Shown: positions 1 to 55,153 of the stretch, piece after piece
How the letters are laid out: every line of letters begins with the position of its first letter
Position numbering within the stretch: position 1 is the first letter of the stretch
Virus record (IMG/VR): IMGVR_UViG_3300028833_002847
DNA: 55,153 bases
Direction: 5' to 3' (one strand)
Source of the DNA: a virus
The notes under the pieces: model-generated
What the model was told of the DNA's origin: nothing
The model's input: the letters and a program-made list of their open reading frames with translations, nothing else
The model's database searches: none
Made by a program: the position numbers and the translations under genes

Positions 1-350
1 CTACTGGACAAGAAAGAGTGAGAATTCAGGCGCAATTTGATGCTTTCTGTAATGGAGGATCAATACTCCATTATAATATTGATGCACCTTTTACAAGTTA
101 CGAAAAAGCTTTATATATGACTAATTATATTGCTCAAAAAGGTGTTACATATTTTGCATTTAATACTCGAATTTCTACATGTAAAGATAATCATGCATTT
201 TATGGCAACGGGCCTTGTCCAGTATGTGGTAAACCAAAAGACGCAGAATTTACTAGAATTGTCGGTTTCTACACAAAAATTAACAGTTGGAGCCAGACTC
301 GCAAAGATGAATTTAAACTTCGTAAATGGGATAACATCAATGATAATTAA
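1..350 (+). CDS. nrdD: anaerobic ribonucleoside-triphosphate reductase NrdD, C-terminal fragment; the start lies upstream of the window
   Basis: Frame-0 ORF ending TAA 348-350. Tail CPVCGKP...TRIVGFYTKINSWSQTRKDEF matches the class III RNR C-terminal Zn-ribbon (CxxC) and the glycyl-radical loop (RVxGY-like). Trp is encoded by TGG only. Confidence 0.75.
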   Translation, partial: TGQERVRIQAQFDAFCNGGSILHYNIDAPFTSYEKALYMTNYIAQKGVTYFAFNTRISTCKDNHAFYGNGPCPVCGKPKDAEFTRIVGFYTKINSWSQTRKDEFKLRKWDNINDN

Positions 351-804
351 AGGTATTATTTCTGAAGATTTTATTAATTATAAAAAACCTTGTATGGTTA
401 TAGAATTTCCAGTTTGTAAAAACTTTAAATGCGGGCAAGCCCTATGTCAAAACAATCCATTAATAAAATATCCAGATATAGAAATTAGTTATTCTCAAAT
501 TGTTAAAAAATACATGGAAAATGATATTACACAAGCTATTGTTTTTATGGGGCTAGAACCTTTTGATAGTCCGCATGATTTATTTCTTTTAATTGAAGAA
601 TTTAGAAAATATACAATGGATGATATTGTAATTTACACTGGATATTACTGGAATGAAATTTCTACATATGTAGCTATGCTAGTGGATTATAAAAATATTA
701 TTATTAAATACGGTAGATACATTCCCAATCAAACTCCACACTATGATGAAGTTTTAGGCGTAAAATTGGTAAGTGATAATCAATATGCTGCAAAGATCAG
801 TTAG
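307..804 (+). CDS. nrdG: NrdG-like anaerobic RNR activating protein (small radical-SAM activase). Start is ATG 307 or ATG 340. It overlaps the nrdD end.
   Basis: Position immediately after nrdD. Cys cluster VCKNFKCGQALCQNNP. GLEPFDSP resembles the GGEP motif. Cys spacing is Cx4Cx4C, not canonical CxxxCxxC, so the call is tentative. Confidence 0.45.
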   Translation: MNLNFVNGITSMIIKGIISEDFINYKKPCMVIEFPVCKNFKCGQALCQNNPLIKYPDIEISYSQIVKKYMENDITQAIVFMGLEPFDSPHDLFLLIEEFRKYTMDDIVIYTGYYWNEISTYVAMLVDYKNIIIKYGRYIPNQTPHYDEVLGVKLVSDNQYAAKIS

Positions 805-812
805 GAATAAAT

Positions 813-1055
813 ATGTATTATAATAATTATTTTAACAACAACAATAATACTACTATTTTAATTATAATTATAGCTTGTACTCTTATAGTTGGTTTAAGTT
901 TTCTTTTATTTGCTTTTGGCTATTGGCTAATAACTTTAATAGCTGCTCAAATTTTTAATTTTATAATTCCATTTGAATGGACATATGCTTTAGGAGCTTA
1001 TGCAATATTAATAATTATTAGATTATTTATGTTACCAAGTGGTCAATCTAAATAA
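813..1055 (+). CDS. small hydrophobic membrane protein (2 predicted TM helices), unknown function
   Basis: 80-aa ORF. Asn-rich N-terminus followed by two long hydrophobic stretches. Sits just before a terminator. Confidence 0.5.
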   Translation: MYYNNYFNNNNNTTILIIIIACTLIVGLSFLLFAFGYWLITLIAAQIFNFIIPFEWTYALGAYAILIIIRLFMLPSGQSK

Positions 1056-1060
1056 AAAAT

Positions 1061-1108
1061 GCCTCAACAAAAGAATAAAAAATTCTAATGTTGAGGCTTA
1101 TTTTTTTT
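1061..1108 (+). terminator. intrinsic terminator after the first early operon
   Basis: Inverted repeat gcctcaaca ... tgttgaggc followed by a T8 run. The loop is large (about 19 nt). Confidence 0.5.
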
Positions 1109-1136
1109 GACATTTTATTTAATAATATAGTATAAT
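1107..1136 (+). promoter_or_regulatory. sigma-70/sigma-A type promoter (TTGACA-N18-TATAAT)
   Basis: Exact TTGACA at 1107-1112 and TATAAT at 1131-1136. Located about 25 nt upstream of the strong RBS AAAGGAG for the ORF starting at 1160. Confidence 0.6.
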
Positions 1137-1159
1137 ATAATAAAACGAAAGGAGATTAT

Positions 1160-1558
1160 ATGGGAGATGTTTCTTTAGGTACTGTATATGATATTAATAA
1201 AACTGTATATAGTAATCAATCAGAAAAAATGCCAGAAGCTTTAGTTCAATCCATGTTAAAAAAAGTTTCAAGCTGGTTTAAAACTAAAGCTCTTTGTGAA
1301 GCACAATATTATATGTTTCTTTGTCGTGACCGTAATGATTATACAATTTTTAATTTTATAAAAAATAATCCAGAAAAAGGAATCAAAGAATTAATTGAAT
1401 TAATTCAATCTCGTGGAATTCTTAAAGATATTGTCTATAATGAAAAATATAATTATTATGAATTTTGGATTAGTATAGATACAGAAGGATTTAGACCAGA
1501 AATGTATATGTATATTCTTTTTCCATGTAATGAATTTGTAATCGAGATTGGAGATTAA
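1160..1558 (+). CDS. hypothetical protein
   Basis: 132-aa ORF with a strong RBS (aaaggagattatATG). No in-frame TGA. No recognisable motifs. Confidence 0.6.
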   Translation: MGDVSLGTVYDINKTVYSNQSEKMPEALVQSMLKKVSSWFKTKALCEAQYYMFLCRDRNDYTIFNFIKNNPEKGIKELIELIQSRGILKDIVYNEKYNYYEFWISIDTEGFRPEMYMYILFPCNEFVIEIGD

Positions 1559-1560
1559 AT

Positions 1561-1821
1561 ATGGATATGATGATTGCTGCTCGTCCCGCAGCTAATATTA
1601 CAATTATGATTACGCAAGAAACTCCAGAATATGATGCTCAAATGGTAGCTTCTCAAACTGTTTTTGAAAAAGATTTGGAAAAAACAATTAGAAAATATTT
1701 AAATGATTATAAAATCGAAACAATGTCTATATACGGTCCTTTAGATTATATTGAACATTTAGCTGATACTCTTGGTAAAACTTTTAATCGTGAAATTACT
1801 ATAATTGGAGCTGGTGTATAA
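1561..1821 (+). CDS. hypothetical protein
   Basis: 86-aa ORF, tightly packed after the previous gene. GGAG-type RBS. Confidence 0.5.
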   Translation: MDMMIAARPAANITIMITQETPEYDAQMVASQTVFEKDLEKTIRKYLNDYKIETMSIYGPLDYIEHLADTLGKTFNREITIIGAGV

Positions 1822-2102
1822 TGATTAAATATCTTCTTAAAACAACTGAAGAATATCGTCTTGAAACTGTAGAAGATGTAAAAACTTTTCATAAAAAACT
1901 TCAACAAGATGCTATAAATCAAGGATATACGCTAAGCTCTTTTGGATATACACAAAAGTCAACAACTGCTCGTGGAGAAATTATTGATGAATGGTGTGTT
2001 GTAAAAGTTATAAAAATATTCCAAAAAGATAAAGAACCAGAAAATGCACTTAATAAAATTACTTATGAAACTTTTAATAGAGAGGAGTTTAATGGAGATT
2101 AA
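1821..2102 (+). CDS. hypothetical protein
   Basis: 93-aa ORF. ATG overlaps the previous stop (TAATG). Confidence 0.5.
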   Translation: MIKYLLKTTEEYRLETVEDVKTFHKKLQQDAINQGYTLSSFGYTQKSTTARGEIIDEWCVVKVIKIFQKDKEPENALNKITYETFNREEFNGD

Positions 2103-2514
2103 AATAAAATATGAACATGATGATGTCCCTCGATTAAATAAAATTGTTCAAGGAGATTGAATTGATTTAACTTTAGATGAAGATATTCAATTAGATAAAG
2201 GGCAATCAGGACTATTTTCTTTAGGAGTGTGTATTCAATTACCAAAAGGATATGAAGCAATTTTAGCTCCAAGAAGTTCAACATTTAAACGTTATCATTT
2301 ACTTCAAACCAACTCAATTGGTGTTATTGATAATTCTTATTGTGGAAATAATGATATCTGGAAAGTTAGTTTTTATGCCACCGAAACTACTTTTGTTCCA
2401 AGAGGAACAAGAATTTGTCAATTTAGAATAATTAAAAATCAACCTGAAATTAATTTTATAGAAGTTTCATCCCTTAATAATCAAGATAGAAATGGTTTTG
2501 GTTCAACAGGATAA
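2092..2514 (+). CDS. dut: dUTP diphosphatase (trimeric dUTPase), Bacillus YncF/YosS-like
   Basis: RBS GAGGAG. Motifs QGDWIDL (the W is TGA at 2158-2160), APRSS, GVIDNSYCGNND, RICQFRII and GFGSTG at the C-terminus. MEIKIKYE...QGDWIDL closely resembles B. subtilis prophage dUTPases. Confidence 0.85.
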
Positions 2515-2993
2515 TGATTTTATCTTTAGATCAAGCATTAGTCACAACAGGTTGAGCAATTTTTGATGAAAATAAATTAATAGCTTATGACAGTTTTACT
2601 ATAAATGGAAAAGATTCTATTGAAAAAAGATTAGGATTTATTTTTCAAAGATTAATAGAATTATATAATAAATATGAGTTTGATTATTTAGTATTTGAAG
2701 ATATTCAACAGCAACAAAATCCAAGTACATATAAAAAACTTGCATATGTTCAAGCGATTATTTTACTTTGATGTTTTTATAATCAAATTAATTTTACAGT
2801 ATTAAGTCCTTCTCAATGAAGAAAAATATTAGGTGGAAATTTTGGAAGAAAAAGAGAAGAACAAAAACAAAAAGCTATTAATTTAGTAAAACAATATTAT
2901 AATATAAATGTTGATTCAGATATTGCGGATGCAATATGTATTGGAAAAGCCTATTTAGATAGTCATAAACAATTAGGATTCGGGGTGATTTAA
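2514..2993 (+). CDS. phage RuvC-like Holliday junction resolvase
   Basis: Start overlaps the dut stop (TAATG). N-terminus ILSLDQALVTTGWAIFDE is RuvC-fold motif I. Acidic FEDIQ and C-terminal DSDIADAICIG catalytic motifs are present. Three in-frame TGA are read as Trp. Confidence 0.75.
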
Positions 2994-2994: not shown

Positions 2995-3930
2995 TTGTCT
3001 CTTTTTATTGTGGCAATTATTATAGCATTAGTCCTATTATTCTTTGCAGGCTATTGTAGAAAAACTAAAGATAATAAATATGATAATTATTCAAAAGCTA
3101 CAGGACCTCTTATTATAGCAGCAATTATAGTAGCTTTAACAGGTACATTTTTATCTTGCGTTTATACTCAAGATGTAGGTGAAGTTGTTATTCTTCGTAA
3201 TCTTGGAGGTCAATTAGCTGGAACAACTGAAGAAGCAGGTTTTCATTTTAAAGCTCCTTGGCAAGATACTATTGATTATGATATTCGTAACAATATTATT
3301 AATCTTTATCGAGATGATGAATATTCCTATGATAATGGAACAGCTCATGGAGCAGAAGTAACAGTTTATGATAAATCAGGCGCTCAAGCAAATGTAGATG
3401 TTCAAGTAATTTATTCCTTAGACCCAGATGCAGCAATTGATCTTTATACTAAATACCAAGAACAAGAAAACTTTATTCAAATTTCCGCAGTAAATAATGT
3501 GCGGGATGCTGCAAGAAATGTATCAGGACAATTTACTACAATTGAAATGTTAAATGCTCGTGAAAACTATGCTAAAGCAATTTATGATAAACTTTCAGCA
3601 GATTGGGATAAAATAGGATTACATGTCGAAGAGGTCAACGTACAGGACATCAGATACAATCAGGAAATTGTTGATGCTTATAATGCTGCTCAAAAAACAG
3701 AAATTTCCAAAGTTGAAGCATTAAATCAACAAGAAACCGAAAAAGTTAAAATGGATACTGAAGTCATGAAAGCTCAAAAAGAAGCAGAAGCTAATAAAAT
3801 TAGAAGTGATTCTCTAACTCCTGAAATTCTTCAACAAGAATATATTGAAGCTCTTAAAAATGGTAACGCTATTTATGTAGTTCCTGAAGGTTCTACTCCA
3901 ATAGTCAATCTAGATAAGAAAGCAGAATAA
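2995..3930 (+). CDS. SPFH/band-7 (HflC/K, prohibitin-like) membrane protein
   Basis: TTG start with SD GGGGTGAT. N-terminal TM helix. Then VVILRNLGGQL...FHFKAPWQDTIDYDIR...VQVIYSL typical of the SPFH domain. Coiled-coil, Ala/Glu/Lys-rich C-terminus. No TGA. Confidence 0.7.
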   Translation: MSLFIVAIIIALVLLFFAGYCRKTKDNKYDNYSKATGPLIIAAIIVALTGTFLSCVYTQDVGEVVILRNLGGQLAGTTEEAGFHFKAPWQDTIDYDIRNNIINLYRDDEYSYDNGTAHGAEVTVYDKSGAQANVDVQVIYSLDPDAAIDLYTKYQEQENFIQISAVNNVRDAARNVSGQFTTIEMLNARENYAKAIYDKLSADWDKIGLHVEEVNVQDIRYNQEIVDAYNAAQKTEISKVEALNQQETEKVKMDTEVMKAQKEAEANKIRSDSLTPEILQQEYIEALKNGNAIYVVPEGSTPIVNLDKKAE

Positions 3931-3932: not shown

Positions 3933-4640
3933 TTGAAATTTTTAAATATTCTTTTTATTGCAATTCTAAGTTTAAGTATTTTAGGATGTAATAAACCACA
4001 AACCCAAGAGAAGAAAGATGAAGAAGTAATAACTGTGCGGGACGAGGAAGCACCTCGTGATGGAAGTCAAGCCGGTTCTAATGCAGTCGATATCCCGCAC
4101 TTCCTCGCCACTTTAGATAATGAAAGATTTACTTATTCTTATTCACCTATTGGATATGATAATATTGATATTGAAATGACTAAAGATTTAAATTGTATTC
4201 AACAAATTACAAATTGTTTTGGATATAAGTTTGATATACAAAAATTTTATGATGATTATTTTGATAGCATGAATCTTCATACTGATGTAACTCCAGTTCA
4301 AGGAAGTTTTGGACCTTCTGGATGTGTAGAATTTACAAAAACATATTATTCAGATAATGATATTCCAATAAGTGTAGAAGAAATTTCTGGTATTGATTTT
4401 GAAACTTTTACAAATATTGTTAATCATAATTGGCCTATTATGGTATGGTATACATTAGATGATAGTCAATTTGGTGGAGAAATACAATATTGGCCTTTCT
4501 ATTATCCAATGATTGCTACTAAAGTAGATGAAGAAAATGTTTATTTGTTTGATGCAATTAATGGTGAAAAAGTAGAATCTATTTCTGAATTTCAAAGAAT
4601 TTGGGAGAAATGCGGAAATTATTGTTTAGTTTTCTTTTAA
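3933..4640 (+). CDS. lipoprotein (signal peptide with lipobox LGC), unknown function
   Basis: N-terminus MKFLNILFIAILSLSILGCNKPQ has a SPase II lipobox. Last gene of the plus-strand operon. Trp is encoded by TGG only. Confidence 0.65.
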   Translation: MKFLNILFIAILSLSILGCNKPQTQEKKDEEVITVRDEEAPRDGSQAGSNAVDIPHFLATLDNERFTYSYSPIGYDNIDIEMTKDLNCIQQITNCFGYKFDIQKFYDDYFDSMNLHTDVTPVQGSFGPSGCVEFTKTYYSDNDIPISVEEISGIDFETFTNIVNHNWPIMVWYTLDDSQFGGEIQYWPFYYPMIATKVDEENVYLFDAINGEKVESISEFQRIWEKCGNYCLVFF

Positions 4641-4650: not shown

Positions 4651-4692
4651 AAAAAAAGAGGGGTACTCAATTAAGAGTACCCCTTATTTTTT
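4651..4692. terminator. bidirectional intrinsic terminator at the convergence of the plus-strand early operon and the minus-strand late module
   Basis: A7 run, then a 10-bp stem gaggggtactc/gagtacccct with loop aattaa, then a T8 run. U-runs on both strands. Confidence 0.75.
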
Positions 4693-6251
4693 TACCATTT
4701 ATTATCATTTAAAGAGCATTGTAAGGCTTTAACAGATTCTCTACCAAAATATCCATCTACATCAATATCGTAACCTTTATTAACTAACCATTGCTGGAGA
4801 GCTCTTGAGGTCCCAGGGCCTCATTGACCATCAACTTCCGCACCAACTTTACTTTGAATAGCTTCAACTAATTGAGAACCAGTTCCGCTATCATATTCAA
4901 CATTATACATTCCTCAATGGTAATCTTTATTTCCAAGCCATTGACCGCTAATAACACCATCTTCATAAGTACCTAATGTGTGCTGTAAATCAATAATAGT
5001 ATTTCATCCACCAATACCATCAATTTCAAGTTTTCCACCATCGCGATTATTTTTTGGATCAGTTGAAACATCTGGTGTGAAATTTCCACTATCAGAATTA
5101 CTATAATGAGGTCTAATAACATAGGCTACGTTACCCATATTACGATATTTTTCTTGTACGGCATTACCAACATTACCTTCAATTGTTGGGAATCCAGAGC
5201 CATCAAAACTTCCTGTTGCAAATCCAATATGGTCAGTAGCTCCATCTCAATCCCAATTAAAGATAACAATGTCTCCATACTGTACATTATATTTATCTAC
5301 AGCATAATTTTTTGCGCCATTATTTAGAGCTAAATCTGTATTATAAGTTGGGAAACCTTTAACTACAACTCCTGCTTGTTCTAAGCATCAACTTACAAAC
5401 ATGCAGCACCATCAAATTTCAACAGAAGGTCCAGCAAGCCAATCTTCATCTCACTTATCAGCCAATCAACGACCATATTTAGAACCTGGTTCAGGATCAT
5501 TAGGAGCATAATATCCTAATTCACCATAAGCAACGTCAATAACACTTTTAGCTGTTCCACTCATTTGTTTACTTTCTTCTTCTTTTTTTTCCTCTATTGG
5601 TTCATCAGTTTGAATAGTTTGTCCAGCAGCTATTCTTGCGGGATAGTCGATACAACACCAATCGCAATCGTGATAACCACTAACATCATCAAATACTATA
5701 TGACCATCAGATAATCTAATTCCGCCTTGCTGTCACATTCCAATATCTCCAGCTTCAGTTGGTCAAGAAGCTTTTCATCAAGCAATTCAATTAGCATAGT
5801 CACGAAGTTCATCTGCATACATATTGTTTAATCATGCATTTCCACCAGTATAAAGTCCTGCATAATATCCTCTATTACGGAGAGTATCGCAAAAAACTTT
5901 AATAACATCAGTTAAAGTACGTGCTGATAACTGGAATTGTCTTGGATCTTCAACATCTGTGTAACAAGGTAAATCAAATTTATGTCCATCAAGTAAATCT
6001 GCAAAGTGATTAGCATCTTTTCTTGAATTTTCTGTATCTGTAGTAACTGTATAATAATATGCTCCAATATGAAGTCCAGCAGCTACAGCTTTTTTATAAT
6101 TATTTTCAAATTGTCCGTCTTTATAACGTCCTAAATTTGTTTCATTTCCACCAGCTTTAATAATAACGCCTCAAAGTCCTCTCTGACGTTTTCAAGCTGC
6201 TAAATCAATATCCCCATCTCAATGAGAGATATCAAGAACAAGTTCTTTCAT
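4692..6251 (-). CDS. endolysin: N-terminal GH25 muramidase, central CHAP/NlpC-P60-like amidase/peptidase, C-terminal PG_binding_1 peptidoglycan-binding repeats (table 4, about 519 aa)
   Basis: SD AGAGGTG. N-terminus LDISHWDGDIDLAAWKR...VIIKAGG. GH25 motifs ANWIAWW and GMWQQGG with the conserved Trp encoded by TGA. Cys/His core ...WWCCMFVSWCLEQAGV...DHIGFATG. C-terminus QWGPGTSRALQQWLVNKGYDIDVDGYFGRESVKALQ. Confidence 0.8.
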
Positions 6252-6280: not shown

Positions 6281-6312
6281 GAGTCCCATATTTCAGGGAC
6301 TCTTTTTATTTT
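6281..6312 (-). terminator. intrinsic terminator between the holin and the endolysin
   Basis: Stem gagtccc/gggactc with an 8-nt loop. Followed on the minus-strand transcript by a U7 run immediately downstream of the holin stop. Confidence 0.55.
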
Positions 6313-6601
6313 ATTCTTTTAGATGAGCAGGCTGCTTTTTTAATTCATGCATTAGTATGTCTGCTTGAAGAGCGGGTTGAGTAAAACTGTTATTCTTCCA
6401 TCAAGCGATAATAGAAGCTACAACAACAGCAACACCTGAAGCAATTTCATAAATATTGTTTTCATCAATATCAATAGGAGTTCACCCAAGTAAAGCGCAA
6501 AAAGCATTAACTAATGCAATAAATAGAACAATGGTTCTAGCAATAGTCCCAGGTTCAATTGAAAGCAATCCGTCTAAATTAATTGTTTTTGCTTCAGCCA
6601 T
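6311..6601 (-). CDS. holin (LL-H / phi-LC3-like class, about 95 aa)
   Basis: SD AAGGTG. Charged N-terminus. Two hydrophobic helices (IARTIVLFIALVNAFCALLGW and ASGVAVVVASIIAWW). Polar C-terminal tail. Directly upstream of the endolysin. Confidence 0.65.
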
Positions 6602-6627: not shown

Positions 6628-7428
6628 TTATTCTCCAGTTCCGCTTCCACCAGCGACGAGTGCATCAATCTCTGCATTAGTAGCAAATGTAATATCTGCA
6701 TCTAAGACATATGGAGAAAGATCAACGAAGCCAGGAAGTACATCAAATTTATAAGCAGGAGACTGACCAGTTGTGTCAGTATCAACAACAACTACATTGG
6801 TTCCAGCAGGATAAGTCTTAGTTACTCCACTAGCATATTCAACGAAGTCACTAGTAATAGTAAAGGAGTCAGTAACATTATAAACGTTACCAAGAACACC
6901 AACAGCTAGAGTTGGTAGACTTGCAAATGCTACAGAACCAGCAGGCTTATAAACAGTAGCAATCTGAGCAGCTACAGTGTCATCAACATAAGTTTTAACA
7001 GCTGCGCCTGTTGGAAGTTTAGCATCATTAGCAAGTGTAGTCTCAACGTCTTTATAAGCAGCAGCGTCAAGACCATGAACGGCTACATCTGAACCATTAA
7101 CAGCAACAGTACCATTTGTAGCACCTTCGGCAACTGTAACATTAACTTTCTTGGTTGTGCTATCAGGAGTTAAATCTGTAGCATTAACTTGGACACCAAG
7201 AACTGGAATTGTTACGTCAACCTTTTTGTTAGCATCAGGAGTTAAGTCAGTACCATTATATTGAACACCAAGAATTGGAACTTCAACATCAACAGCACCA
7301 TCAGCATCCTGTGTTAGAGCTGTACCATTACACTTAACAGTTTTTACTGCACCAGCAGGAGCAAATGTTTCTGTAGCTTTCTGCCATAAACGTTGAATAC
7401 CAGCCCAATCAACGAGTTTCATCGCCAT
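6628..7428 (-). CDS. Ala/Val/Thr/Gly-rich repeat protein, probably a virion structural or decoration protein
   Basis: SD AAGGGTGA. Internal repeats VDVxVPILGVQxNxTDLTPDxxKKV. No TGA. Noticeably GC-richer than its surroundings. Confidence 0.45.
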   Translation of the reverse strand: MAMKLVDWAGIQRLWQKATETFAPAGAVKTVKCNGTALTQDADGAVDVEVPILGVQYNGTDLTPDANKKVDVTIPVLGVQVNATDLTPDSTTKKVNVTVAEGATNGTVAVNGSDVAVHGLDAAAYKDVETTLANDAKLPTGAAVKTYVDDTVAAQIATVYKPAGSVAFASLPTLAVGVLGNVYNVTDSFTITSDFVEYASGVTKTYPAGTNVVVVDTDTTGQSPAYKFDVLPGFVDLSPYVLDADITFATNAEIDALVAGGSGTGE

Positions 7429-23503: not shown

Positions 23504-23513
23504 TTAACCTCCT

Positions 23514-31462: not shown

Positions 31463-31465
31463 AAA

Positions 31466-33177: not shown

Positions 33178-33197
33178 AGCCTCCCTCTTTCTTTATT

Positions 33198-33410: not shown

Positions 33411-33445
33411 GAGAACCTCCTTGTATCTCTAAAAACCTTATTTAT

Positions 33446-33475
33446 ATTATACCCATTTTTTAAAAAATTTATACA
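33446..33475 (-). promoter_or_regulatory. candidate late promoter (motif AAAAAATGGGTATAATATAA)
   Basis: TATAAT at forward 33446-33451 (read on the minus strand) preceded by TGGG. The -35 region is weak. A near-identical 20-nt motif recurs at 50540. Confidence 0.35.
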
Positions 33476-33482
33476 CAAATTT

Positions 33483-49800: not shown

Positions 49801-49874
49801 TCAATACCCTTTAAATCAGCAGAAGTTTTTAACTGATATTCAATTGTATTTGAATACTTACTCAATGTTCTCAC
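40839..49874 (-). CDS. tail tape-measure protein, about 3010 aa (table 4)
   Basis: Ten listed fragments from 40839 to 49874 share one frame. Junction 45851-45942 checked and is TGA only. The N-terminal region (48726-49121) resembles the TP901-family tape-measure core (SLDAMALVAAESASDL...). Long Gln/Glu/Ala-rich coiled coil. Hydrophobic Gly/Ala segment at 47160-47423. Start is GTG 49874 or TTG 49865 after SD AAGGTGA. Stop TAG 40839-40841. Confidence 0.6.
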
Positions 49875-50030: not shown

Positions 50031-50507
50031 CTAATTATTAGGATTTGTCCAACGTTCAGTAATATTTTCTAATTGTTTTATATTTTCTGAACTAGCTACT
50101 TCTTGTAAACGTTCAGTAGCCATATTTACAATATCTCCACTTACAGTTTGTAACATATCAAAAATTCCACGAGTAGATAATTGATAATCTTTTAAGTCAT
50201 TATACCACTCTATTCCGCAATTAATAATATAATCAAATTCTTCTGCATGTTCATTATAAAGTTTATCGTAATATCCATCTTTAACAACTTTATCAAAGGC
50301 TTCATTAATATTAATTGTAACTAAAGCAGCTAATTCTTCTTTTGTCTCTTGGTAAAACATAATAGTAGAAAATACTACTAGTGCTCTTTCAAAAATAAAT
50401 CCTTTAAGATATCCATCTTTATTTGCTTCTTGAAGAGAAAAAGTAATAATGTCTGTAATATCTTGAGAACTTAAAACTCTTTTTTCTTCTACTTCTATAT
50501 TAATCAT
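50031..50507 (-). CDS. putative tail assembly chaperone (acidic, 158 aa)
   Basis: RBS AGGAGG. Acidic helical protein immediately upstream of the tape-measure gene. Confidence 0.4.
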   Translation of the reverse strand: MINIEVEEKRVLSSQDITDIITFSLQEANKDGYLKGFIFERALVVFSTIMFYQETKEELAALVTININEAFDKVVKDGYYDKLYNEHAEEFDYIINCGIEWYNDLKDYQLSTRGIFDMLQTVSGDIVNMATERLQEVASSENIKQLENITERWTNPNN

Positions 50508-50539
50508 TTTTCCTCCTAAGTAAAATTATTTACAATTAT

Positions 50540-50568
50540 ATTATACCCAATTTTTTAGCATTGTAAAC
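50540..50568 (-). promoter_or_regulatory. candidate late promoter TTTACA-N17-TATAAT (motif AAAAAATTGGGTATAATATAA)
   Basis: Minus-strand TATAAT at forward 50540-50545 and TTTACA at forward 50563-50568. Shares a 20-nt core with the site at 33446. Confidence 0.45.
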
Positions 50569-50585
50569 AAAATTTTACAAAAAAT

Positions 50586-52202
50586 TTACAAAACTTTTTG
50601 CATTAATTGAGATATTTCCCGCATTGTAATTTCTACTCTAATCTTAGTATTATACATTAAATCTAAACTTCTTCTCCAAAGTAAATCTGAACGATCTTGA
50701 GCATCATCTAAAATTCCATCTCCCTCAGTATCTACTTGCCATAGTTGTTGATTTAAGTTTGAGTAGGTTGAACGAACTAATCCTAAATTTTTACCATTAC
50801 TATTTGCAACTTCTGATAAACCAACAGATGAAGAAGAATTTAAAAAATGTTCTATAAAATTAGACATGGTTCAAAAATTACCATTAATAACCATATAAAA
50901 ACTTTGGTCATCAGTATCTTCAAAACCAGCTAAAGCATTTAATAAACTTCTATATCCAATACTTTTAATTAAAAATTGTCATTTATTATCTGCTTCACTA
51001 TAATCATTATTTCTACTTATTCCAGAAGCTATTTGTAGTATAGCTCACATATCTTCACCAGTATAACCTGCTTCTCTTCCCAAGAGTGTAGACATAGGAG
51101 TTCCATCTTGAATTTTAATGGTATAAGATTTTAAATTATCAGTTAATTGCTTTTCATAGTTCTTAGCATTTGCGCCTAACGCTATTCTTAAAACTCCACC
51201 TTCATCAGTAATATCAATAGAAAAGTCTTTCTTAGCTTTCTTTTTATAATAAGCTTGTTTCTGTTTTACTTCTTTTAATATTTCTTTTAATTCACTATCA
51301 GGATTAAAATTAACTCCATAATAATTATTTCCAGTATGACTATAAGAAACTTGCTGTTCTATAAAATGTTCAATTTGTTCGTTAGCTTCTAATGCTTTTA
51401 AATGTGAGCGGACAATGCCAACACCTTCACTAACTTCTCTCAAAGTTTTATCAGCTTCTCGTAATCAGGCAATACATTTTTTACGAACTTCATCTAATAA
51501 GAAAATATCTTTCTCAAAATGACCACTATTTGTAGAACCTGTTTTACCATGTCGAACAATCATGCCACTTTTTATCTCTTCCTGACAAAGCGGTATCAAC
51601 TGCGCCGCAAGTACTACTTTTCCCATTGCAGTATTATATTGTTCATTAGCATTATCAGGAATTTTAAAAGCATCGTTACTATATTTACCCATTAATGCAG
51701 CAATAACTTTACCTGCGGAAGAATATCCAGCTAAACTATCTTGTCCTAATATAGAACCTTCTGTTACTTTTAACATAGTATTTTCTACATATGCATCTAA
51801 CATATGTTGAGTTTCATCAGATAATGATTGTAAATAATTATTAATAGTATCTACAAAATCATCAATAGTGTCAAATGTTAATAAATCTTTTTTTAATCTG
51901 GTAATAATTTCTCTCGGATCCTTATCCGCACTTATTTCTGTTTCATCATTATTTTCGAAATCTTTATTAGAAATTGTAGAAATTCCTTGTAAAATTTCTC
52001 CACTGAGAAATTGAGAAACAGCTTCTTCATCTATATTATTTTGTTTAGCTATTCTTTTAATTTTTTCTTGTCTTTTGGCTAAATTTAACAAATGTCTTTC
52101 TAAAATTTCTGTTTTTGTTTCATATCAAATTTGATTTGCTCAAGCTTCTTCGGGAATATGTTCTTGTCAGAAATGTAAATATCTAAAACTATAATTTTCC
52201 AT
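50586..52202 (-). CDS. structural-module protein of unknown function (about 538 aa, table 4)
   Basis: RBS AGGAG before ATG 52202. Fragments 51465-52091, 51045-51443 and 50586-50867 share a frame. Stop TAA 50586-50588. Lies between the major structural protein and the tail chaperone. Confidence 0.45.
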
Positions 52203-52258: not shown

Positions 52259-52272
52259 GAATATTAATTAAA

Positions 52273-53448
52273 TTATGACTTTGTAACTGTAACAGTATAA
52301 GTCTTAGTAGCGGTTCCCTTTGTAACCTTAACTGTAACTGTATTCTCTCCAGTAGCCCAAGTAGCAGCATTACCATTAGTAATAACTGTTGTACCATTTT
52401 TAATTTCAATGGTAGCAGTATTATCTGTAGCAATAGCACTAATTGTACCATTGGCTGTAGTTGTTGTACCAGTGTAAGTTAATGTTTCAGCATCGAATGT
52501 TGGGCTAAGAGTAACTCCACTAATTGTTAATGCAGAAAGAGTAGCATCATCTTCATCAACTGGAGTTTCTGTAGCTTCGATGTTTTCGTCACCAATAATC
52601 TGGAAAACGACAACACGCTTTTTGGTTTTATCAAACTTTGTATAGTCAGGGAATGCATCCATAACGAATGAGAATGTTGATGGATCACCAGTATTAGCCA
52701 TATTGAAAGTAAATGAAGATTGAATCTTAACATTAGGGAAGATAATCTCAACTGGCATATCCTCACCAGAGTATTCTTCACGGAATAATCCAGAAGCTTC
52801 TACATAGTAGTTTCCAGCAAAGTTATCAGCATCAATAGTAATCTGTTTAACGCCAGCAGTTTTAACTACATATGTATCAACACGAAGAGTGTGTCCAACA
52901 TATCCAGCAGCACCATCAAAGGTAATTTCAATTCCATCAGAACCTACTGTATGTTCACCATCAGCAATAGAAGTTGTTGCAACAGGAACAACACCAGCAC
53001 CAGCGTTATCTAGAACCATACCAAAAATAGGAGCAGTTCCAGAATTAACATAAAGAACAACATCTTCTCCACCAGCTGTATCAGCATCAACTTTAACTTT
53101 TCCACCTGCTAAAATAGGAAGATCGAAAGTTGTGTGAACATACATTTTCTGGTCACCAGTACCAGCATCAATAAGTCCAGCACCAGTTAGAACAGCAATA
53201 CCCATAGGAGAAAGAAGAGCATCTTCTACGTTAAATGTAACAGTACGTTCGCCTTCCCAAGCAATAAGACGAGGATTACCACGACCACCACGAGCATAAA
53301 CTAACTCAGATGTTCCCTCGACGCTTGAAGTCTTAGCTGTATCAATATAAAGTACAGGTTGACCTTTTGCGAAAGTAGTGTTACCAATTTGAGTCTGGGT
53401 ACGAGCTTTGAATACAACGTCACAAATTTCACGAATACCAAAACGCAT
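52273..53448 (-). CDS. major virion structural protein with a C-terminal Ig-like (Big_2-type) domain; either major capsid or major tail tube protein
   Basis: SD AGGTGAT before ATG 53448. Gly/Ala/Val/Thr/Asp-rich composition. The C-terminal ~90 aa (LSALTISGVTLSPTFDAETLTYTG...TYTVTVTKS) are typical of Big_2. No TGA. GC-richer than neighbouring genes. Confidence 0.5.
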   Translation of the reverse strand: MRFGIREICDVVFKARTQTQIGNTTFAKGQPVLYIDTAKTSSVEGTSELVYARGGRGNPRLIAWEGERTVTFNVEDALLSPMGIAVLTGAGLIDAGTGDQKMYVHTTFDLPILAGGKVKVDADTAGGEDVVLYVNSGTAPIFGMVLDNAGAGVVPVATTSIADGEHTVGSDGIEITFDGAAGYVGHTLRVDTYVVKTAGVKQITIDADNFAGNYYVEASGLFREEYSGEDMPVEIIFPNVKIQSSFTFNMANTGDPSTFSFVMDAFPDYTKFDKTKKRVVVFQIIGDENIEATETPVDEDDATLSALTISGVTLSPTFDAETLTYTGTTTTANGTISAIATDNTATIEIKNGTTVITNGNAATWATGENTVTVKVTKGTATKTYTVTVTKS

Positions 53449-53567
53449 CTTAAGTATCACCTATTCCTTTCTTTTAATCTCGGTAATTTTTTACAATGCC
53501 ATTGTTTAATCACCATTCACTAAAGGAATAGCGATTCTCTATAATCAAGATTCCAACAGAATCAAGA

Positions 53568-54326
53568 CTAATTATATAAATTTCTTTGTCAATTGTCGGG
53601 TTCATCCATATTTTCAGTGGATGCAAATGGTTGTAAAGCAATTTTTTGATATAAATCACATTCTTGTTTTGAAATATATCTTGTAAAAGCATCGTAGAGT
53701 TGAAAAGGAGTATAATTATAAAATATATTTACATCCATTTGTAACCCAATAGACAAAATAGAAGTATAAAAACTAAATAATGATTGAAAATTGTCTGAAG
53801 ATTTTTTATTAGTTCTTTGTCTGGCTGCTTCTAATTTTTTAGCAATTTTTTCCGCTAATTCGTTTGCAGGATTAAATTTATTTTCTCTACTATCTGGCGG
53901 ATCAAACAATTCTTTAACAACAGTAGAAAAATTTTCAAAGTTATACATTTGAATCATACCTATAACAGTATTATTTTCATCCTCTTGTAAACTAAAATTT
54001 ATACTATTTTGAGTATAAAATACATTATAAATAGGGAAACATAATTCAAAAAACTTATCAAAAGAATTTTTAATTAATCCTTCATCAGTTTTTATTACCT
54101 CTAATAAAATTTGAAAATTACTAAATTCATTTAATTCAGAATTGCCCTCTTTTACTGAGGAAAAAAAATCTTCTGGACTCCCAATCATTTTTATAGCTGT
54201 AAAAAATTCATTTTCTCCAAATTGAACTATATCTTTAATTGTAGGCTGAATAATAAATATTCCACAAGTAGGAATTTTTACTTGACTTCCTGAAAGATAA
54301 AGTCCACTATCTCCTTGTAACCTCAT
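53568..54326 (-). CDS. hypothetical structural-module protein (about 250 aa; the apparent stop at 53589 is TGA, the real stop is TAG 53568-53570)
   Basis: Manual extension through TGA at 53589-53591. Start is ATG 54326 or GTG 54335. Confidence 0.45.
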
Positions 54327-54340
54327 ATTAATCACTACCT

Positions 54341-54950
54341 ATTGAACATGTTCGCGAACATCTTCATTAGTAATTATTTCATTTTTATCTTCATCATTTT
54401 CATGTGTTGCAGAATATTGAAGAACAATTCCTCCTCAATCTTCATTCATTATTAAACGCTGAGCGCCAACAAAACGAAGTTTTCCAATACCAGTTAAACG
54501 AGTATTGTTTAAAATTCCATCAAGATATCCCGCAATAGCAATTGGACGAGTTTTATAATTATCCAATTCTCAACAATCAGTATTACAAAAAATAGAAAAA
54601 TTTATAGTCACATTTCTAAATTCAGGATTAGAAGTTGGGAAAAAATCTGTAAATTCAATGATTATATAAGATTTAACCTCTCCAAAGTCTTTAATTTTTA
54701 ATTTTGGAGTTAAAGAAATATAACCCTCTTCTTTTAACTTTCCTAAACTATACTTATCTATAATTTGTAAATATTGACCTTGACTTTCATCAAGACAATC
54801 AGGAGTGTTAATAATTAAAAGTCTTTTTAAATAATTACTATAAGGTTTGTTTTCTACAAATAATTTTCTTAATATTAATTCTTGGTCTTTTTCACAAGAA
54901 AGGAAGCTAGAATGAAAATCTGTCATTATTTGTTGTGATACTCTTTTCAT
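54341..54950 (-). CDS. hypothetical structural-module protein (about 203 aa, table 4)
   Basis: RBS GGGAGG before ATG 54950. One internal TGA. Stop TAG 54341-54343. Confidence 0.45.
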
Positions 54951-54962
54951 TTTAAACCTCCC

Positions 54963-55153
54963 TTATAAAGATTTAATATTAATTGTTTTAACATACTGTT
55001 CATTATCTGTAATTAATCCAAGAGTGAAAGAAGATTTCTTTCTAGATATAATTTCAATAGTACATTGTGTGCGGGAAGATTTGACAATTTTAGCCATTCT
55101 CTCATCAGGAATTGTAAATTCTCCCTCAACTAATGACGTATAAGTAACAATAT
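54963..55153 (-). CDS. hypothetical protein, C-terminal fragment (start beyond window end)
   Basis: Open frame running into the window edge. Stop TAA 54963-54965 overlaps the RBS of the next gene. Confidence 0.4.
   Translation of the reverse strand, partial: IVTYTSLVEGEFTIPDERMAKIVKSSRTQCTIEIISRKKSSFTLGLITDNEQYVKTINIKSL

What the first reader, a model, noticed from the sequence alone, without database searches (positions are those of the whole stretch)
1..55153. TGA-Trp is concentrated in late and lysis genes, so this looks like a stop-codon-recoded phage of a walled host, not Mollicutes DNA
Most early genes (nrdD, nrdG-like, four small ORFs, SPFH, lipoprotein) use only TGG for Trp and have no in-frame TGA. 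The TGA-free structural genes at 52273-53448 and 6628-7428 do the same. dut has one TGA and the resolvase three. The endolysin has about 14 TGA against about 8 TGG. The tape-measure, LRR and baseplate genes are riddled with TGA. Mollicutes use TGA as the dominant Trp codon genome-wide. The element also carries a GH25+CHAP+PG_binding_1 endolysin and a holin, which are useless against a wall-less host. The Shine-Dalgarno sequences are strong low-GC Gram-positive type and there is a class III RNR. This pattern matches the proposed use of recoding to delay late-gene and lysis translation until a phage suppressor tRNA is expressed. No suppressor tRNA or release-factor gene is in the window.
Basis: partly seen in the sequence, partly recalled or inferred. 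Interest (0 to 1): 0.8.

Follow-up and report, generated by a model that had tools for sequence, protein, structure and literature searches.

The report
TGA-recoded phage of walled Firmicutes
This window is about a third of a ~148-kb phage of a Gram-positive gut or rumen bacterium that reads the stop codon TGA as tryptophan in its tail and lysis genes but avoids it in its early genes; this pattern is already published for such phages, but the same genome also carries an unusual suppressor tRNA that may show how the switch is made.

Summary
Read with TGA as a sense codon, the window gives 30 clean genes. The early genes on the + strand have 4 TGA and 15 TGG. The late genes on the - strand have 183 TGA and 51 TGG (p=8e-7). 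Adding 26 upstream replication genes from a near-identical IMG/VR contig gives 10:105 against 183:51 (p=2e-37). Every other NNA/NNG codon pair is 82-100% A-ending in both gene classes, so the early genes avoid TGA specifically. TGA aligns with Trp in relatives, not Gly.

The host is a walled Bacillota. The evidence is an SPP1-type holin, a GH25+CHAP+PG-binding endolysin, an LPXTG pilin, and cultured relatives that all infect Bacillota. Relatives at 45-57% tail-tube identity use the standard code, TGA recoding or TAG recoding. This rules out Mollicutes DNA.

All of this matches the recoded phages of Borges et al., most closely their 'Agate' clade, so it is a new member of a known kind.

The window has no tRNA. 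A tRNA(UCA) lies about 36 kb upstream of nrdD in the same phage. It is tRNA-Trp-like and has a long variable arm whose loop copies the Trp CCA anticodon loop. Amber suppressors of TAG-recoded relatives carry a Gln anticodon-loop copy at the same place. I found no description of this in the searchable literature.

The parts
3..350 (+). g01, C-terminus of the class III ribonucleotide reductase NrdD; runs off the left end of the window. 0 TGA / 2 TGG.
   Evidence: Pfam NRDD E=1e-22. The 587-aa part held in L081 has 0 TGA / 8 TGG.
340..804 (+). g02, NrdG-like activase with a 4Fe-4S domain. 0 TGA / 1 TGG.
   Evidence: Pfam Fer4_12; counts.
813..2102 (+). g03-g06, four small early ORFs of unknown function (813-1055, 1160-1558, 1561-1821, 1821-2102). 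0 TGA / 5 TGG in total.
   Evidence: No Pfam or PHROG family, except a sub-threshold baeRF_family5 match for g05. g05 has no homologue in relatives.
2092..2514 (+). g07, dUTPase. 1 TGA (codon 23) / 1 TGG.
   Evidence: Pfam dUTPase E=4e-13. The TGA aligns with W in relatives.
2514..2993 (+). g08, RuvC-type Holliday-junction resolvase. 3 TGA / 0 TGG. It is the only clearly recoded gene of the + strand block.
   Evidence: Pfam RuvC E=4e-11. The TGA codons align mostly with W.
2995..3930 (+). g09, SPFH/Band_7 membrane protein. 0 TGA / 2 TGG.
   Evidence: Pfam Band_7 E=7e-28.
3933..4640 (+). g10, predicted lipoprotein with lipobox LSILGC. 0 TGA / 4 TGG.
   Evidence: Read from the sequence; no family hit.
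4658..4685 (.). Bidirectional intrinsic terminator between the converging early (+) and late (-) blocks.
   Evidence: A stem of 10-11 pairs followed by T-runs on both strands. GC skew changes sign here.
4692..6251 (-). g11, endolysin with GH25 + CHAP + PG-binding domains. 17 TGA / 7 TGG; the first TGA is codon 11.
   Evidence: Pfam; counts and positions.
6311..6601 (-). g12, SPP1-type holin. 2 TGA / 1 TGG; the first TGA is codon 40 of 96.
   Evidence: Pfam Holin_SPP1 E=1.5e-24.
6628..7428 (-). g13, late protein with no TGA (0/2). GC is 41%. Function unknown (PHROG 38190).
7446..8072 (-). g14, late protein of unknown function. 3 TGA / 1 TGG.
8156..19930 (-). g15, giant 3,924-aa protein made of DUF285/BspA-type LRR repeats; probably a receptor-binding fibre. 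62 TGA / 11 TGG.
   Evidence: Precomputed Pfam families DUF285 and LRR_5 on the identical ENA gene.
19943..27167 (-). g16 and g17, DUF285/BspA LRR proteins of 1,186 and 1,217 aa. 15/2 and 14/3.
   Evidence: Pfam DUF285 E=9e-53 and 4e-39.
27167..29206 (-). g18, 679-aa repeat protein like a head fibre. It has no Trp codon of either kind.
   Evidence: Pfam Phage_head_fibr.
29219..35249 (-). g19-g22, tail/baseplate proteins (29219-31429, 31519-33177, 33198-33410, 33483-35249). 26 TGA / 8 TGG in total.
   Evidence: PHROG tail protein for g19. TGA aligns with W in g19 and g20.
35261..40714 (-). g23, 1,817-aa tail protein next to the tape measure. 17 TGA / 7 TGG.
   Evidence: No Pfam family. TGA aligns with W 29 times.
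40839..49865 (-). g24, tape measure protein of 3,008 aa. 17 TGA / 3 TGG.
   Evidence: Pfam PhageMin_Tail E=2e-30. TGA aligns with W 165 times in relatives.
50031..52202 (-). g25 (158 aa, 0/2) and g26 (538 aa, 7/2), which sit where tail-assembly chaperones usually lie.
   Evidence: The role is inferred from position only.
52273..53448 (-). g27, tail tube protein with a C-terminal Ig/cadherin-like domain. 0 TGA / 2 TGG. GC is 38.5%.
   Evidence: PF27173 YomU_Tube on the identical protein; Pfam Cadherin-like.
53568..55151 (-). g28 (1/0), g29 (virion structural protein, 2/0) and the C-terminus of g30, which runs off the right end of the window.
   Evidence: PHROG 6123 for g29. The single TGA of g28 aligns with W 58 times and with an in-frame TGA 6 times in relatives.

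Best explanation
The window is about 37% of the ~148-kb genome of an uncultivated large siphovirus. Its host is a walled Bacillota that uses the standard code, living in an animal gut or rumen. The phage belongs to a big family of 75-175-kb contigs, related to Phass-1, the Enterococcus EF1 group and SPbeta-type tail tubes. Lineages in this family have switched repeatedly from the standard code to TGA=Trp or TAG=Gln.

Shown.
- In-frame TGA stands at Trp positions.
- TGA is never used as a stop.
- TGA is almost absent from a 29-kb early, replication and nucleotide-metabolism block (10 TGA : 105 TGG).
- TGA is the main Trp codon of the tail, baseplate, fibre, holin and endolysin genes (183:51).
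- TGA is absent again from the most abundant virion proteins (tail tube, probable capsid and scaffold, g13, g18).
- A near-identical genome carries an array of at least 26 tRNAs that includes a tRNA-Trp-like tRNA(UCA) and a tRNA-Trp(CCA).

Inferred.
- On infection the host ribosomes, with RF2, translate the TGA-free early genes normally.
- Genes that contain TGA give truncated products until the phage tRNA(UCA) has accumulated and competes with RF2. The endolysin would stop at codon 11 and the holin at codon 40.
- Tail and lysis proteins can therefore only be made after the code switch.
- Proteins needed in the largest amounts avoid the codon because suppression is never fully efficient.
- The suppressor is probably charged with Trp by the host TrpRS. 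A conserved side arm that copies the CCA anticodon loop may help this step.

Whether this timing is a selected function or only a consequence is not settled.
For: Code and counts. TGA=Trp.

Phage identity.

Walled Bacillota host.
- Holin and endolysin.
- A protein ending in LPSTG with GramPos_pilinBB, SpaA and Gram_pos_anchor domains.
- Cultured relatives are all phages of Enterococcus, Clostridium, Brevibacillus, Lactococcus or Bacillus.
- Related contigs sit mostly in MAG bins named Bacilli, Erysipelotrichaceae, Clostridia or Lachnospiraceae.

Mixed codes within one family.

Suppressor tRNA.
- ARAGORN finds it at L172 5032-5127.
- It scores 56 bits on the Rfam tRNA model and is not assigned to tRNA-Sec.
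- It has a cloverleaf with A1-U72, G73 and a Trp-like D arm and anticodon arm.
- It is also present in the 89-96% related contig L298.

Published precedent for the whole pattern: Borges et al., bioRxiv 10.1101/2021.08.26.457843.
Against: - Nothing here measures timing or expression. The position of the tRNA array, upstream of the replication block on the same strand, does not tell when it is transcribed.
- Late-gene TGA use (0.78) is not above the neutral A-ending expectation of about 0.9. There is therefore no sign of positive selection for TGA in lysis genes.
- Some non-late genes are recoded: ThyX 5/1, a DprA/SLOG-like protein 3/0, RuvC 3/0 and a reverse transcriptase 5/2.
- In a related TGA-recoded lineage, nrdD and replication genes also carry TGA.
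- The tRNA evidence comes from an IMG/VR contig that is 97-99% identical to the window, not from the window's own contig.
- About 33 kb of the genome was not inspected, so a phage TrpRS or RF1 is not excluded.
- The host is inferred, not observed.
Confidence: 0.85

Rival explanations
1. The identity is the same (a recoded phage of a standard-code host), but the gene-class pattern is a by-product and not a lysis timer. AT mutation pressure turns TGG into TGA wherever that is tolerated. Genes that must be translated before the suppressor is present, or at very high yield, cannot tolerate it. No regulatory benefit is needed.
For: - Late-gene TGA fraction is 0.78, against 0.86-0.98 A-ending for other two-fold pairs. 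TGA is at or below neutral expectation.
- The base after in-frame TGA matches that after other NNA codons, so there is no special context.
- The degree of early-gene recoding varies between lineages, as expected from drift. In L147 nrdD has 5 TGA / 4 TGG; in L150 the DNA polymerase has 0/20.
- Highly expressed virion proteins avoid TGA.
Against: - Borges et al. report lysis-associated families significantly biased toward the recoded codon in Agate and crAss-like phages.
- Here the endolysin has its first TGA at codon 11 and 17 in all.
- A by-product still blocks lysis-gene translation before the switch, so the two readings differ in selection and not in mechanism.
Confidence: 0.4
2. The DNA is from a Mollicutes (code 4) genome or from a phage of a code-4 Mollicutes host. 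TGA=Trp is then simply the host's code.
For: - GC is 29% and TGA=Trp.
- DUF285 is named as a 'Mycoplasma protein' family.
- Three related contigs sit in MAG bins labelled Mollicutes, Tenericutes or Anaeroplasmatales.
Against: - 35 early genes (9,310 aa) use TGA for only 9% of Trp codons, while other codon pairs are about 90% A-ending.
- Peptidoglycan hydrolase domains, a holin and a sortase-anchored pilin are maintained.
- The phage has its own tRNA(UCA).
- Relatives use code 11 or TAG recoding.
- The contigs in the 'Mollicutes'-labelled bins are TAG-recoded or standard-code, not TGA-recoded.
- All cultured relatives infect walled Bacillota.
Confidence: 0.03
3. The host is an undescribed walled Bacilli lineage that itself reads TGA as Trp. 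The TGA-poor early genes were acquired recently from standard-code phages.
For: - TGA-recoded relatives fall in bins named Bacilli, Erysipelotrichaceae, Clostridia, Clostridium and Bacillales, whose own code was not checked.
Against: - The early block has the same GC, GC3 and A-ending bias as the late genes, so it is not recent foreign DNA.
- The same split between standard-code replication genes and recoded structural genes is described for phages whose hosts were predicted to use the standard code.
- Binning of a non-integrated phage contig is weak evidence for its host.
Confidence: 0.05
4. TGA encodes glycine (code 25), which would make this a phage of Absconditabacteria or Gracilibacteria.
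For: Code 25 phages exist in gut metagenomes.
Against: - TGA aligns with W in 40% of cells, and G is not among the twelve commonest residues.
- Code-25 phages recode about 90% of their genes. Here 14 of 30 window genes have no TGA.
- The suppressor is tRNA-Trp-like.
Confidence: 0.01

Closest known systems
TGA-recoded 'Agate' clade phages (Borges et al. 2021/2022, bioRxiv 10.1101/2021.08.26.457843)
   Same: - The samples are animal gut or rumen.
- Predicted hosts are standard-code Firmicutes/Bacteroidetes.
- Standard-code, TGA- and TAG-recoded Agate genomes are all reported.
- TGA occurs in structural and lysis genes, while the replication machinery is in standard code.
- Structural genes lie in several modules.
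- Suppressor tRNAs are present.
- A recoded tail protein lies next to the lysis cassette.
   Different: - Membership could not be tested, because no Agate reference sequence was available to me.
- Here the tail tube and other abundant virion proteins are free of TGA.
- The side-arm structure of the suppressor tRNA is not mentioned in that paper.
Phage Phass-1 (OQ749652) and the proposed Phassvirus group
   Same: - 136 kb, with 48% tail-tube identity.
- A class III RNR, ThyX and a large tRNA array.
- Recoded virion genes and suppressor tRNAs.
- No phage aaRS reported.
- Predicted host in Clostridia.
   Different: - Phass-1 recodes TAG (code 15), not TGA.
- Its suppressors lie directly upstream of nrdD, whereas here that region has none.
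- Gene order differs.
Large Bacillota siphoviruses with a YomU/SPbeta-type tail tube (Enterococcus EF1/H1/VRE9, Clostridium D-1873, Brevibacillus Sundance, Lactococcus 949 group, Bacillus Tsamsa)
   Same: - Tail tube homologous at 30-36% identity.
- Genomes of 115-170 kb.
- Very long tape measure.
- Gram-positive hosts.
   Different: - As far as their GenBank annotation shows they use the standard code, though I did not test this.
- They are much more distant in sequence.
crAss-like and Lak phages with TAG recoding
   Same: Stop-codon recoding is concentrated in late genes, and the phages encode suppressor tRNAs.
   Different: - A different codon (TAG=Gln).
- Bacteroidota hosts.
- Unrelated virion genes.
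Jade phage 'code-change operon' (TrpRS + tRNA-UCA + RF1; Borges et al.; AP1/HF2 pairs tested in PMC12636597)
   Same: TGA is read as Trp through a phage tRNA(UCA) in a Firmicutes phage. Trp insertion at UGA was shown by mass spectrometry for those pairs.
   Different: - No TrpRS or RF1 was found in the ~115 kb inspected here.
- The suppressor instead carries a side arm that copies the CCA loop, which suggests reliance on the host TrpRS.
Mycoplasma/Spiroplasma genetic code 4
   Same: TGA=Trp, low GC, and a tRNA-Trp(UCA).
   Different: - There the code is genome-wide and belongs to the host.
- Here it applies to part of the genome, is carried by the phage, and occurs in a phage with peptidoglycan-directed lysis genes.
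Class II tRNAs and tRNA-Sec (long variable arm; tRNA-Sec has a UCA anticodon)
   Same: Long variable arm, G73 and a UCA anticodon. ARAGORN labels it tRNA-SeC.
   Different: - A 7/5 acceptor/T-stem geometry.
- Best Rfam model is tRNA, not tRNA-Sec.
- The body is Trp-like.
- The variable-arm loop is a 7-nt anticodon-loop copy.
- TGA aligns with Trp, and with Ser in only 38 of 992 cells.

Membership tests
Stop-codon-recoded (code 4) phage of a standard-code host (Ivanova 2014; Borges 2022) | In-frame TGA at positions that are Trp in homologues | tested here: met
   W in 396 of 992 aligned cells at TGA positions. The next residue is L with 101, and G is not in the top 12. The TGG control gives 388 of 619.
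Stop-codon-recoded (code 4) phage of a standard-code host (Ivanova 2014; Borges 2022) | TGA abandoned as a terminator | tested here: met
   All 30 window genes end in TAA or TAG.
Stop-codon-recoded (code 4) phage of a standard-code host (Ivanova 2014; Borges 2022) | Only part of the genes recoded, with early/replication genes readable in the standard code | tested here: met
   14 of 30 window genes have no TGA. The early block has 10 TGA: 105 TGG against 183:51 in late genes, p=2e-37. Other codon pairs are unbiased.
Stop-codon-recoded (code 4) phage of a standard-code host (Ivanova 2014; Borges 2022) | Phage-encoded suppressor tRNA for the recoded codon | tested here: met
   None in the window. 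A tRNA(UCA) is present in IMG/VR contig 3300028591_004246, which is 97-99% identical to the window, and in the 89-96% relative L298.
Stop-codon-recoded (code 4) phage of a standard-code host (Ivanova 2014; Borges 2022) | Close relatives that use the standard code | tested here: met
   The ~2,400-2,700-aa tape measure is intact in code 11 in most related loci, only in code 4 in about 12, and only with TAG read through in about 13. The same mix is seen among MAG-binned contigs.
Stop-codon-recoded (code 4) phage of a standard-code host (Ivanova 2014; Borges 2022) | Host uses the standard code | not testable with these tools
   No host sequence or CRISPR link was obtained. Indirect support only: avoidance of TGA in early genes and the phage's own suppressor.
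'Agate' clade of Borges et al. | Placement in the clade on the large-terminase tree or by vContact2 clustering | not testable with these tools
   No Agate reference sequences were available. Size, habitat, mixed codes and module layout agree.
Mollicutes genome or Mollicutes phage (host code 4) | TGA is the dominant Trp codon in all gene classes | tested here: not met
   Early block is 9% TGA. Five late genes have 0 TGA.
Mollicutes genome or Mollicutes phage (host code 4) | No dependence on a peptidoglycan wall | tested here: not met
   GH25+CHAP+PG-binding endolysin and SPP1 holin. LPXTG sortase substrate.
Code 25 phage (TGA=Gly) | TGA aligned with Gly, and about 90% of genes recoded | tested here: not met
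   16 of 30 genes are recoded.
tRNA-Sec (for the tRNA that ARAGORN calls SeC) | 8/5 or 9/4 acceptor/T arms and a match to the tRNA-Sec covariance model | tested here: not met
   A 7/5 cloverleaf. Rfam assigns it to RF00005 tRNA at 56 bits, not to RF01852.
tRNA-Trp-derived opal suppressor | Bacterial Trp identity set outside the anticodon (G73, A1-U72; in B. subtilis also G2-C71, G3-C70, G4-C69, G5-C68) and a Trp-like body | tested here: inconclusive
   G73, A1-U72 and a Trp-like D arm and anticodon arm are present. The family consensus AGGGGCU...AGCCCCUG has the full B. subtilis set, but this phage's copy has C2-G71, U3-A70, C4-G69 and C5-G68. Charging was not tested.
Large Bacillota siphoviruses with a YomU-type tail tube | YomU_Tube tail tube followed by a tape measure of more than 2,000 aa | tested here: met
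   PF27173 on g27. The 3,008-aa protein carries PhageMin_Tail. tblastn hits reach the EF1, D-1873, Sundance, 949 and Tsamsa groups.

The most novel reading that the evidence does not exclude
The code switch may rest on a kind of suppressor tRNA that has not been described in anything I could search. It has two anticodon-type stem-loops.

Opal suppressors.
- The real anticodon arm reads the stop codon (UCA).
- A conserved 5-6-bp variable arm carries a 7-nt loop, NUCCA(A/U)A, which copies the tRNA-Trp CCA anticodon loop.
- 20 of the 23 tRNA-Trp-like tRNA(UCA) genes found in 63-178-kb IMG/VR contigs have this arm.
- The loop is invariant at U-C-C-A, while 5 of the 6 stem pairs show compensatory changes.

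Amber suppressors.
- In TAG=Gln relatives, Phass-1 included, the long-armed amber suppressors carry CUCUGAA or CUUUGAA at the same place.
- These are the tRNA-Gln CUG and UUG anticodon loops.

Reading. The side arm presents the cognate anticodon identity element to the host TrpRS or GlnRS. Both enzymes depend on the anticodon. This would let a phage reassign a stop codon without encoding its own synthetase. Alternatively, the two hairpins may swap places as the stacked anticodon arm.

This addresses the open question Borges et al. state about how suppressors get charged.
Probability: 0.4. Interest if true: 0.85.

Novelty: new member of a known kind. Interest (0 to 1): 0.5.

Why it matters
The recoding pattern itself confirms a published model and adds little. 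It is one more genome, with a clean internal control: other codon pairs show no bias. It also shows that the most abundant virion proteins avoid the recoded codon, and that the neutral A-ending expectation already accounts for late-gene TGA use. Both points bear on whether recoding is a selected lysis timer or a tolerated by-product.

In practice, standard-code gene callers shred this phage. Its tape measure, fibres and endolysin vanish unless code 4 is used.

The larger potential value lies in the suppressor tRNA. If the variable-arm copy of the cognate anticodon loop is what lets host TrpRS and GlnRS charge stop-codon readers, three things follow:
- it explains why phage reassignments are so far only TGA to Trp and TAG to Gln;
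- it explains why most recoded phages need no synthetase of their own;
- it offers a portable design rule for engineered suppressor tRNAs.

Tried and rejected
- Megablast of 25 kb against GenBank phages found no match.
- I looked for a tRNA next to nrdD, by analogy with Phass-1. There is none within 10 kb upstream, nor in 44 structural loci or 24 nrdD loci of relatives.
It did not show the 148-kb contig for g27. I therefore walked the genome through IMG/VR contigs instead.
- A chimeric query to the search for homologous proteins returned only short contigs of relatives.
- g05 has a sub-threshold match to a bacterial eRF1-like family (baeRF_family5, E=0.0035). I judged it to be noise. It has no PHROG and no homologue in any relative, recoded or not.
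- The base following in-frame TGA is no different from that after other NNA codons.
- phmmer of the endolysin against PDB sequences found nothing at 1e-5.
- Pfam found no family for the portal, the probable capsid or the scaffold. PHROGs identified the portal and terminase only.
- Five literature searches for a variable-arm anticodon copy in suppressor tRNAs found nothing. The library lacks most subscription journals, so this does not prove novelty.
- Alignment A1 contains a row I mistyped. Only A2 was used.
- No TrpRS or release factor gene turned up in the ~115 kb inspected, but most genes there were not scanned against Pfam, and about 33 kb was not seen at all.

Full report
**1. What is in the window**

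The 55,153-bp window has 28.9% GC. Under the bacterial code, ORFs of at least 100 aa cover 37,977 nt and the longest is 2,637 nt. With TGA read as sense these figures become 63,111 nt and 11,787 nt. Reading TGA as sense gives 30 tightly packed genes with AGGAGG-type ribosome-binding sites. All end in TAA or TAG.

- Ten genes lie on the + strand (3-4640): the NrdD C-terminus, an NrdG-like protein, four small ORFs, dUTPase, RuvC, an SPFH protein and a lipoprotein.
- A bidirectional terminator at 4658-4685 separates them from the converging - strand block. GC skew flips there.
- The - strand block holds a GH25+CHAP+PG-binding endolysin, an SPP1-type holin, a 3,924-aa DUF285/LRR protein, two further LRR proteins, a head-fibre-like repeat protein, tail and baseplate proteins, a 3,008-aa tape measure and a YomU-type tail tube.
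- There is no tRNA and no Rfam family in the window.

**2. Check of the observation**

- Early genes have 4 TGA and 15 TGG. Late genes have 183 and 51 (Fisher p=7.6e-7).
- Composition does not explain this. The other eleven NNA/NNG codon pairs are 82-100% A-ending in both classes and differ little between them. For Trp the A-ending fraction is 0.21 in early genes and 0.78 in late genes.
- TGA means Trp. I masked all Trp codons and aligned the proteins to translated relatives. TGA positions face W in 396 of 992 cells, followed by L (101) and Y (49), and '*' (an in-frame TGA in a recoded relative) in 47. Gly is not among the top twelve. TGG positions face W in 388 of 619 cells.

Two refinements matter.

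- Late genes are not uniformly recoded. g13, g18, g21, g25 and the tail tube g27 (1,564 aa) have no TGA. At the late-gene rate this has P=4e-9. They are also poor in Trp overall. In the head module just beyond the window, the probable capsid (0/2) and a 168-aa neighbour (0/0) behave the same way.
- The late-gene TGA fraction (0.78) does not exceed the neutral A-ending level. What needs explaining is exclusion from early and very abundant proteins, not enrichment in late ones.

**3. The rest of the genome**

The window comes from ENA contig ERZ27257202 k141_6411382, which is 148,461 bp long. The window lies near one end, and the contig stops inside nrdD. Two IMG/VR contigs from metagenome 3300028591 are the same species-level phage.

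- Contig 000460 is 97-98% identical in nucleotides over 12 kb.
- Contig 004246 has 99% NrdD identity and 88-100% identity for g02-g13.

I walked 004246 upstream of nrdD in four steps.

- The first 27 kb upstream is a + strand replication block. By my reading of the sequences and sizes (not scanned against Pfam) it holds two topoisomerase subunits, a ligase, a DnaB-type helicase, a primase, a RecJ-like protein, a 1,274-aa PolIII-alpha-like polymerase and a glutaredoxin-like protein. It has 6 TGA and 92 TGG.
- Together with the window's + strand genes, this gives 10:105 over 9,310 aa against 183:51 in the late genes (p=2e-37).
- Further upstream the picture is mixed. ThyX has 5/1, an LPXTG pilin-like protein 4/3, a reverse transcriptase 5/2, and head-fibre or collagen-like proteins 8/0 and 3/11. 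A TROVE/Ro60 protein (0/5) and a 594-aa protein (0/8) have no TGA.
- About 115 kb of the ~148 kb has now been seen. No integrase, host flank, TrpRS or release factor was noticed, though most genes there were not scanned against Pfam.

**4. The suppressor tRNA**

Between the fibre-like genes and the replication block lies an array of at least 26 tRNA genes.

- It includes tRNA-Trp(CCA) and, at L172 5032-5127, a 93-nt tRNA with anticodon UCA.
- ARAGORN names it SeC only because of the anticodon. Rfam assigns it to the general tRNA model at 56 bits.
- It folds as a 7/5 cloverleaf with A1-U72 and G73. Its D arm and anticodon arm closely resemble B. subtilis tRNA-Trp.
- The 89-96% related phage L298 has the same gene.

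The genome has one, about 36 kb upstream of nrdD.

**5. An unexpected feature of that tRNA**

It has a long variable arm. The hairpin is CCUGU-GUCCAAA-GCAGG, and its loop has the form of the tRNA-Trp anticodon loop (U33-C34-C35-A36-A37-A38).

- A pattern scan of IMG/VR for Trp-like tRNA(UCA) gave 23 genes on contigs of 24-178 kb. Two of these are contigs already met as relatives, one TGA-recoded and one whose tape measure is intact in the standard code.
- Twenty of the 23 have the arm.
- In the 18-sequence alignment A2, the loop is invariant at U-C-C-A. Five of the six stem pairs show changes on both sides. Overall 96.7% of cells are paired, and no shuffle out of 500 reaches the observed covariation.
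- RNAalifold predicts the extra hairpin independently.

The matching scan for amber suppressors gave 50 genes.

- About 15 of them are long.
- All but two of the long ones carry CUCUGAA, CUUUGAA or UUUUGAU in the variable arm. These are tRNA-Gln CUG and UUG anticodon loops. The flanking short stems covary (TGC/GCA, CAC/GUG, UCC/GGA).
- One of them is the 88-nt Sup-CUA of Phass-1, a phage that NCBI classifies under code 15.

So opal-to-Trp suppressors carry a Trp anticodon-loop copy, and amber-to-Gln suppressors carry a Gln one.

The anticodon and the discriminator base are major identity elements for TrpRS (review PMC9976931). That the same holds for GlnRS is my own knowledge. The simplest reading is that an anticodon-arm duplication left a side arm that keeps the cognate identity signal for the host synthetase. 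An alternative is that the two hairpins compete for the stacked anticodon-arm position. This is inference. Nothing here tests charging.

Borges et al. state the problem openly: suppressors are common and phage synthetases are rare. Five full-text searches found no description of such an arm, but the library is incomplete.

**6. Host and family**

- The tube protein finds 105 relatives in IMG/VR, with the 80 best kept on contigs of 12 to 175 kb.
- Their tape measure gene is intact only in code 11, only in code 4, or only with TAG read through, depending on the lineage. The same three states occur among 50 contigs binned into MAGs.
- Bins that hold TGA-recoded relatives are named Bacilli, Erysipelotrichaceae, Clostridia, Clostridium and Bacillales. 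The few 'Mollicutes/Tenericutes/Anaeroplasmatales' bins hold TAG-recoded or standard-code relatives. A few bins are from other phyla and are probably binning errors. These contigs are whole phage genomes rather than prophages, so binning is weak evidence for the host.
- Stronger evidence comes from other sources. All 72 GenBank phages with a homologous tube infect Bacillota or are gut contigs. The lysis cassette is of Gram-positive type. The phage encodes a sortase-anchored pilin with GramPos_pilinBB, SpaA and Gram_pos_anchor domains.
- The Phass-1 authors predicted a host in Clostridia.

**7. Comparison with what is known**

The whole pattern is described in Borges et al.:

- recoding arises repeatedly within clades of standard-code phages;
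- the hosts use the standard code;
- TGA=Trp and TAG=Gln are the reassignments seen in phages whose code differs from the host's;
- structural and lysis genes are recoded, and replication genes variably so;
- only 35% of code-4 genomes have a detectable suppressor.

Their 'Agate' clade fits this phage closely. It has a listed size of 154 +/- 27 kb with a ~127-kb TGA-recoded lineage, standard-code, TGA- and TAG-recoded members, cattle, pig and tortoise samples, replication machinery in standard code, and multiple structural modules. I could not test membership because I had no reference sequences.

The lysis-timer idea is their hypothesis. My data fit it: the endolysin would stop at codon 11 and the holin at codon 40. 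My data fit a by-product model equally well. In that model AT pressure drives TGG to TGA wherever translation happens after the suppressor is available and yield is not limiting. The related lineage L147, whose nrdD has 5 TGA and 4 TGG, shows that avoidance in early genes is not universal in the family.

**8. Verdict**

As a phenomenon it is already known, and this phage is a new member of a known kind. The follow-up adds the location of the suppressor, a clean codon-pair control, the exemption of abundant virion proteins, and a possibly new tRNA architecture that makes the charging question directly testable.

Noticed in passing
L172 5032-5127 (IMG/VR 3300028591_004246, same phage; outside the window); relatives L173-L195; amber set L196-L245; Phass-1 L085 12445-12532 (-): Suppressor tRNAs whose long variable arm copies the cognate anticodon loop. 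The UCA suppressors carry NUCCAAA (Trp) and the CUA suppressors carry CUCUGAA or CUUUGAA (Gln). The stems covary and the loops are invariant. I found no description of this in the searchable literature.
   Followed up: yes
L172 8445-9092: A ROOL RNA (RF03087, 298 bits against a gathering score of 99) lies inside the phage tRNA array, between tRNA-Trp(CCA) and tRNA-Ser.
   Followed up: no
L299 3-1310 and L172 9112-9215: A TROVE/Ro60-like protein (Pfam TROVE E=3e-15; 0 TGA / 5 TGG), and a weak YrlA-like Y RNA match (E=4e-4, below gathering score) about 20 kb away next to the ROOL RNA. Together they suggest a phage Ro60/Y-RNA module.
   Followed up: no
L299 4914-9065: A reverse transcriptase (RVT_1, 359 aa, 5 TGA) and a 117-aa ORF lie between a 759-aa head-fibre-like protein and a 1,230-aa collagen/head-fibre-like protein. 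This layout suggests a diversity-generating retroelement. I did not look for template and variable repeats.
   Followed up: no
L170 ~1820-3621; L297 13373-13973: The phage encodes a protein ending in LPSTG plus a hydrophobic tail, with GramPos_pilinBB, SpaA and Gram_pos_anchor domains. It is a sortase substrate and so a marker of a walled Gram-positive host. It has 4 TGA / 3 TGG.
   Followed up: partly
window 27167-29206 (g18): A 679-aa repeat protein like a head fibre has no Trp codon of either kind. With g13, g25 and the tail tube g27, it shows that abundant virion proteins avoid both TGA and Trp.
   Followed up: partly
window 1561-1821 (g05): An 86-aa early protein has a sub-threshold match to baeRF_family5, a bacterial eRF1-like family (E=0.0035, 17.9 bits against a cut-off of 27). 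It has no PHROG and no homologue in any relative, so this is probably noise.
   Followed up: partly
L147 and L150 (IMG/VR relatives with 72-73% NrdD identity): In L147, TGA also occurs in nrdD (5/4) and in replication genes. In L150 the DNA polymerase has 0/20 but nrdD has 3/6. The extent of early-gene recoding differs between lineages.
   Followed up: partly
L187 and L190; L181, L193 and L194: Some related large phages carry both a UCA and a CUA suppressor tRNA. Several carry a tmRNA gene inside the tRNA array. L181 belongs to a contig whose tape measure is intact in the standard code yet it has the UCA suppressor.
   Followed up: no
window 8156-19930 (g15) and 40839-49865 (g24): Two unusually large virion genes: a 3,924-aa protein made of DUF285/BspA LRR repeats, and a 3,008-aa tape measure, which implies a very long tail.
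   Followed up: no
L170 5663-6271: The thymidylate synthase ThyX (Pfam Thy1 E=7e-51) is heavily recoded at 5 TGA / 1 TGG although it is a nucleotide-metabolism gene. It is an exception to the early/late split.
   Followed up: partly
L172 4197-4718; L297 6101-6676, 11002-11616, 12668-13297: Homing-endonuclease-type genes (HNH and two GIY-YIG) are interspersed in the tRNA array of this phage and of a close relative.
   Followed up: no
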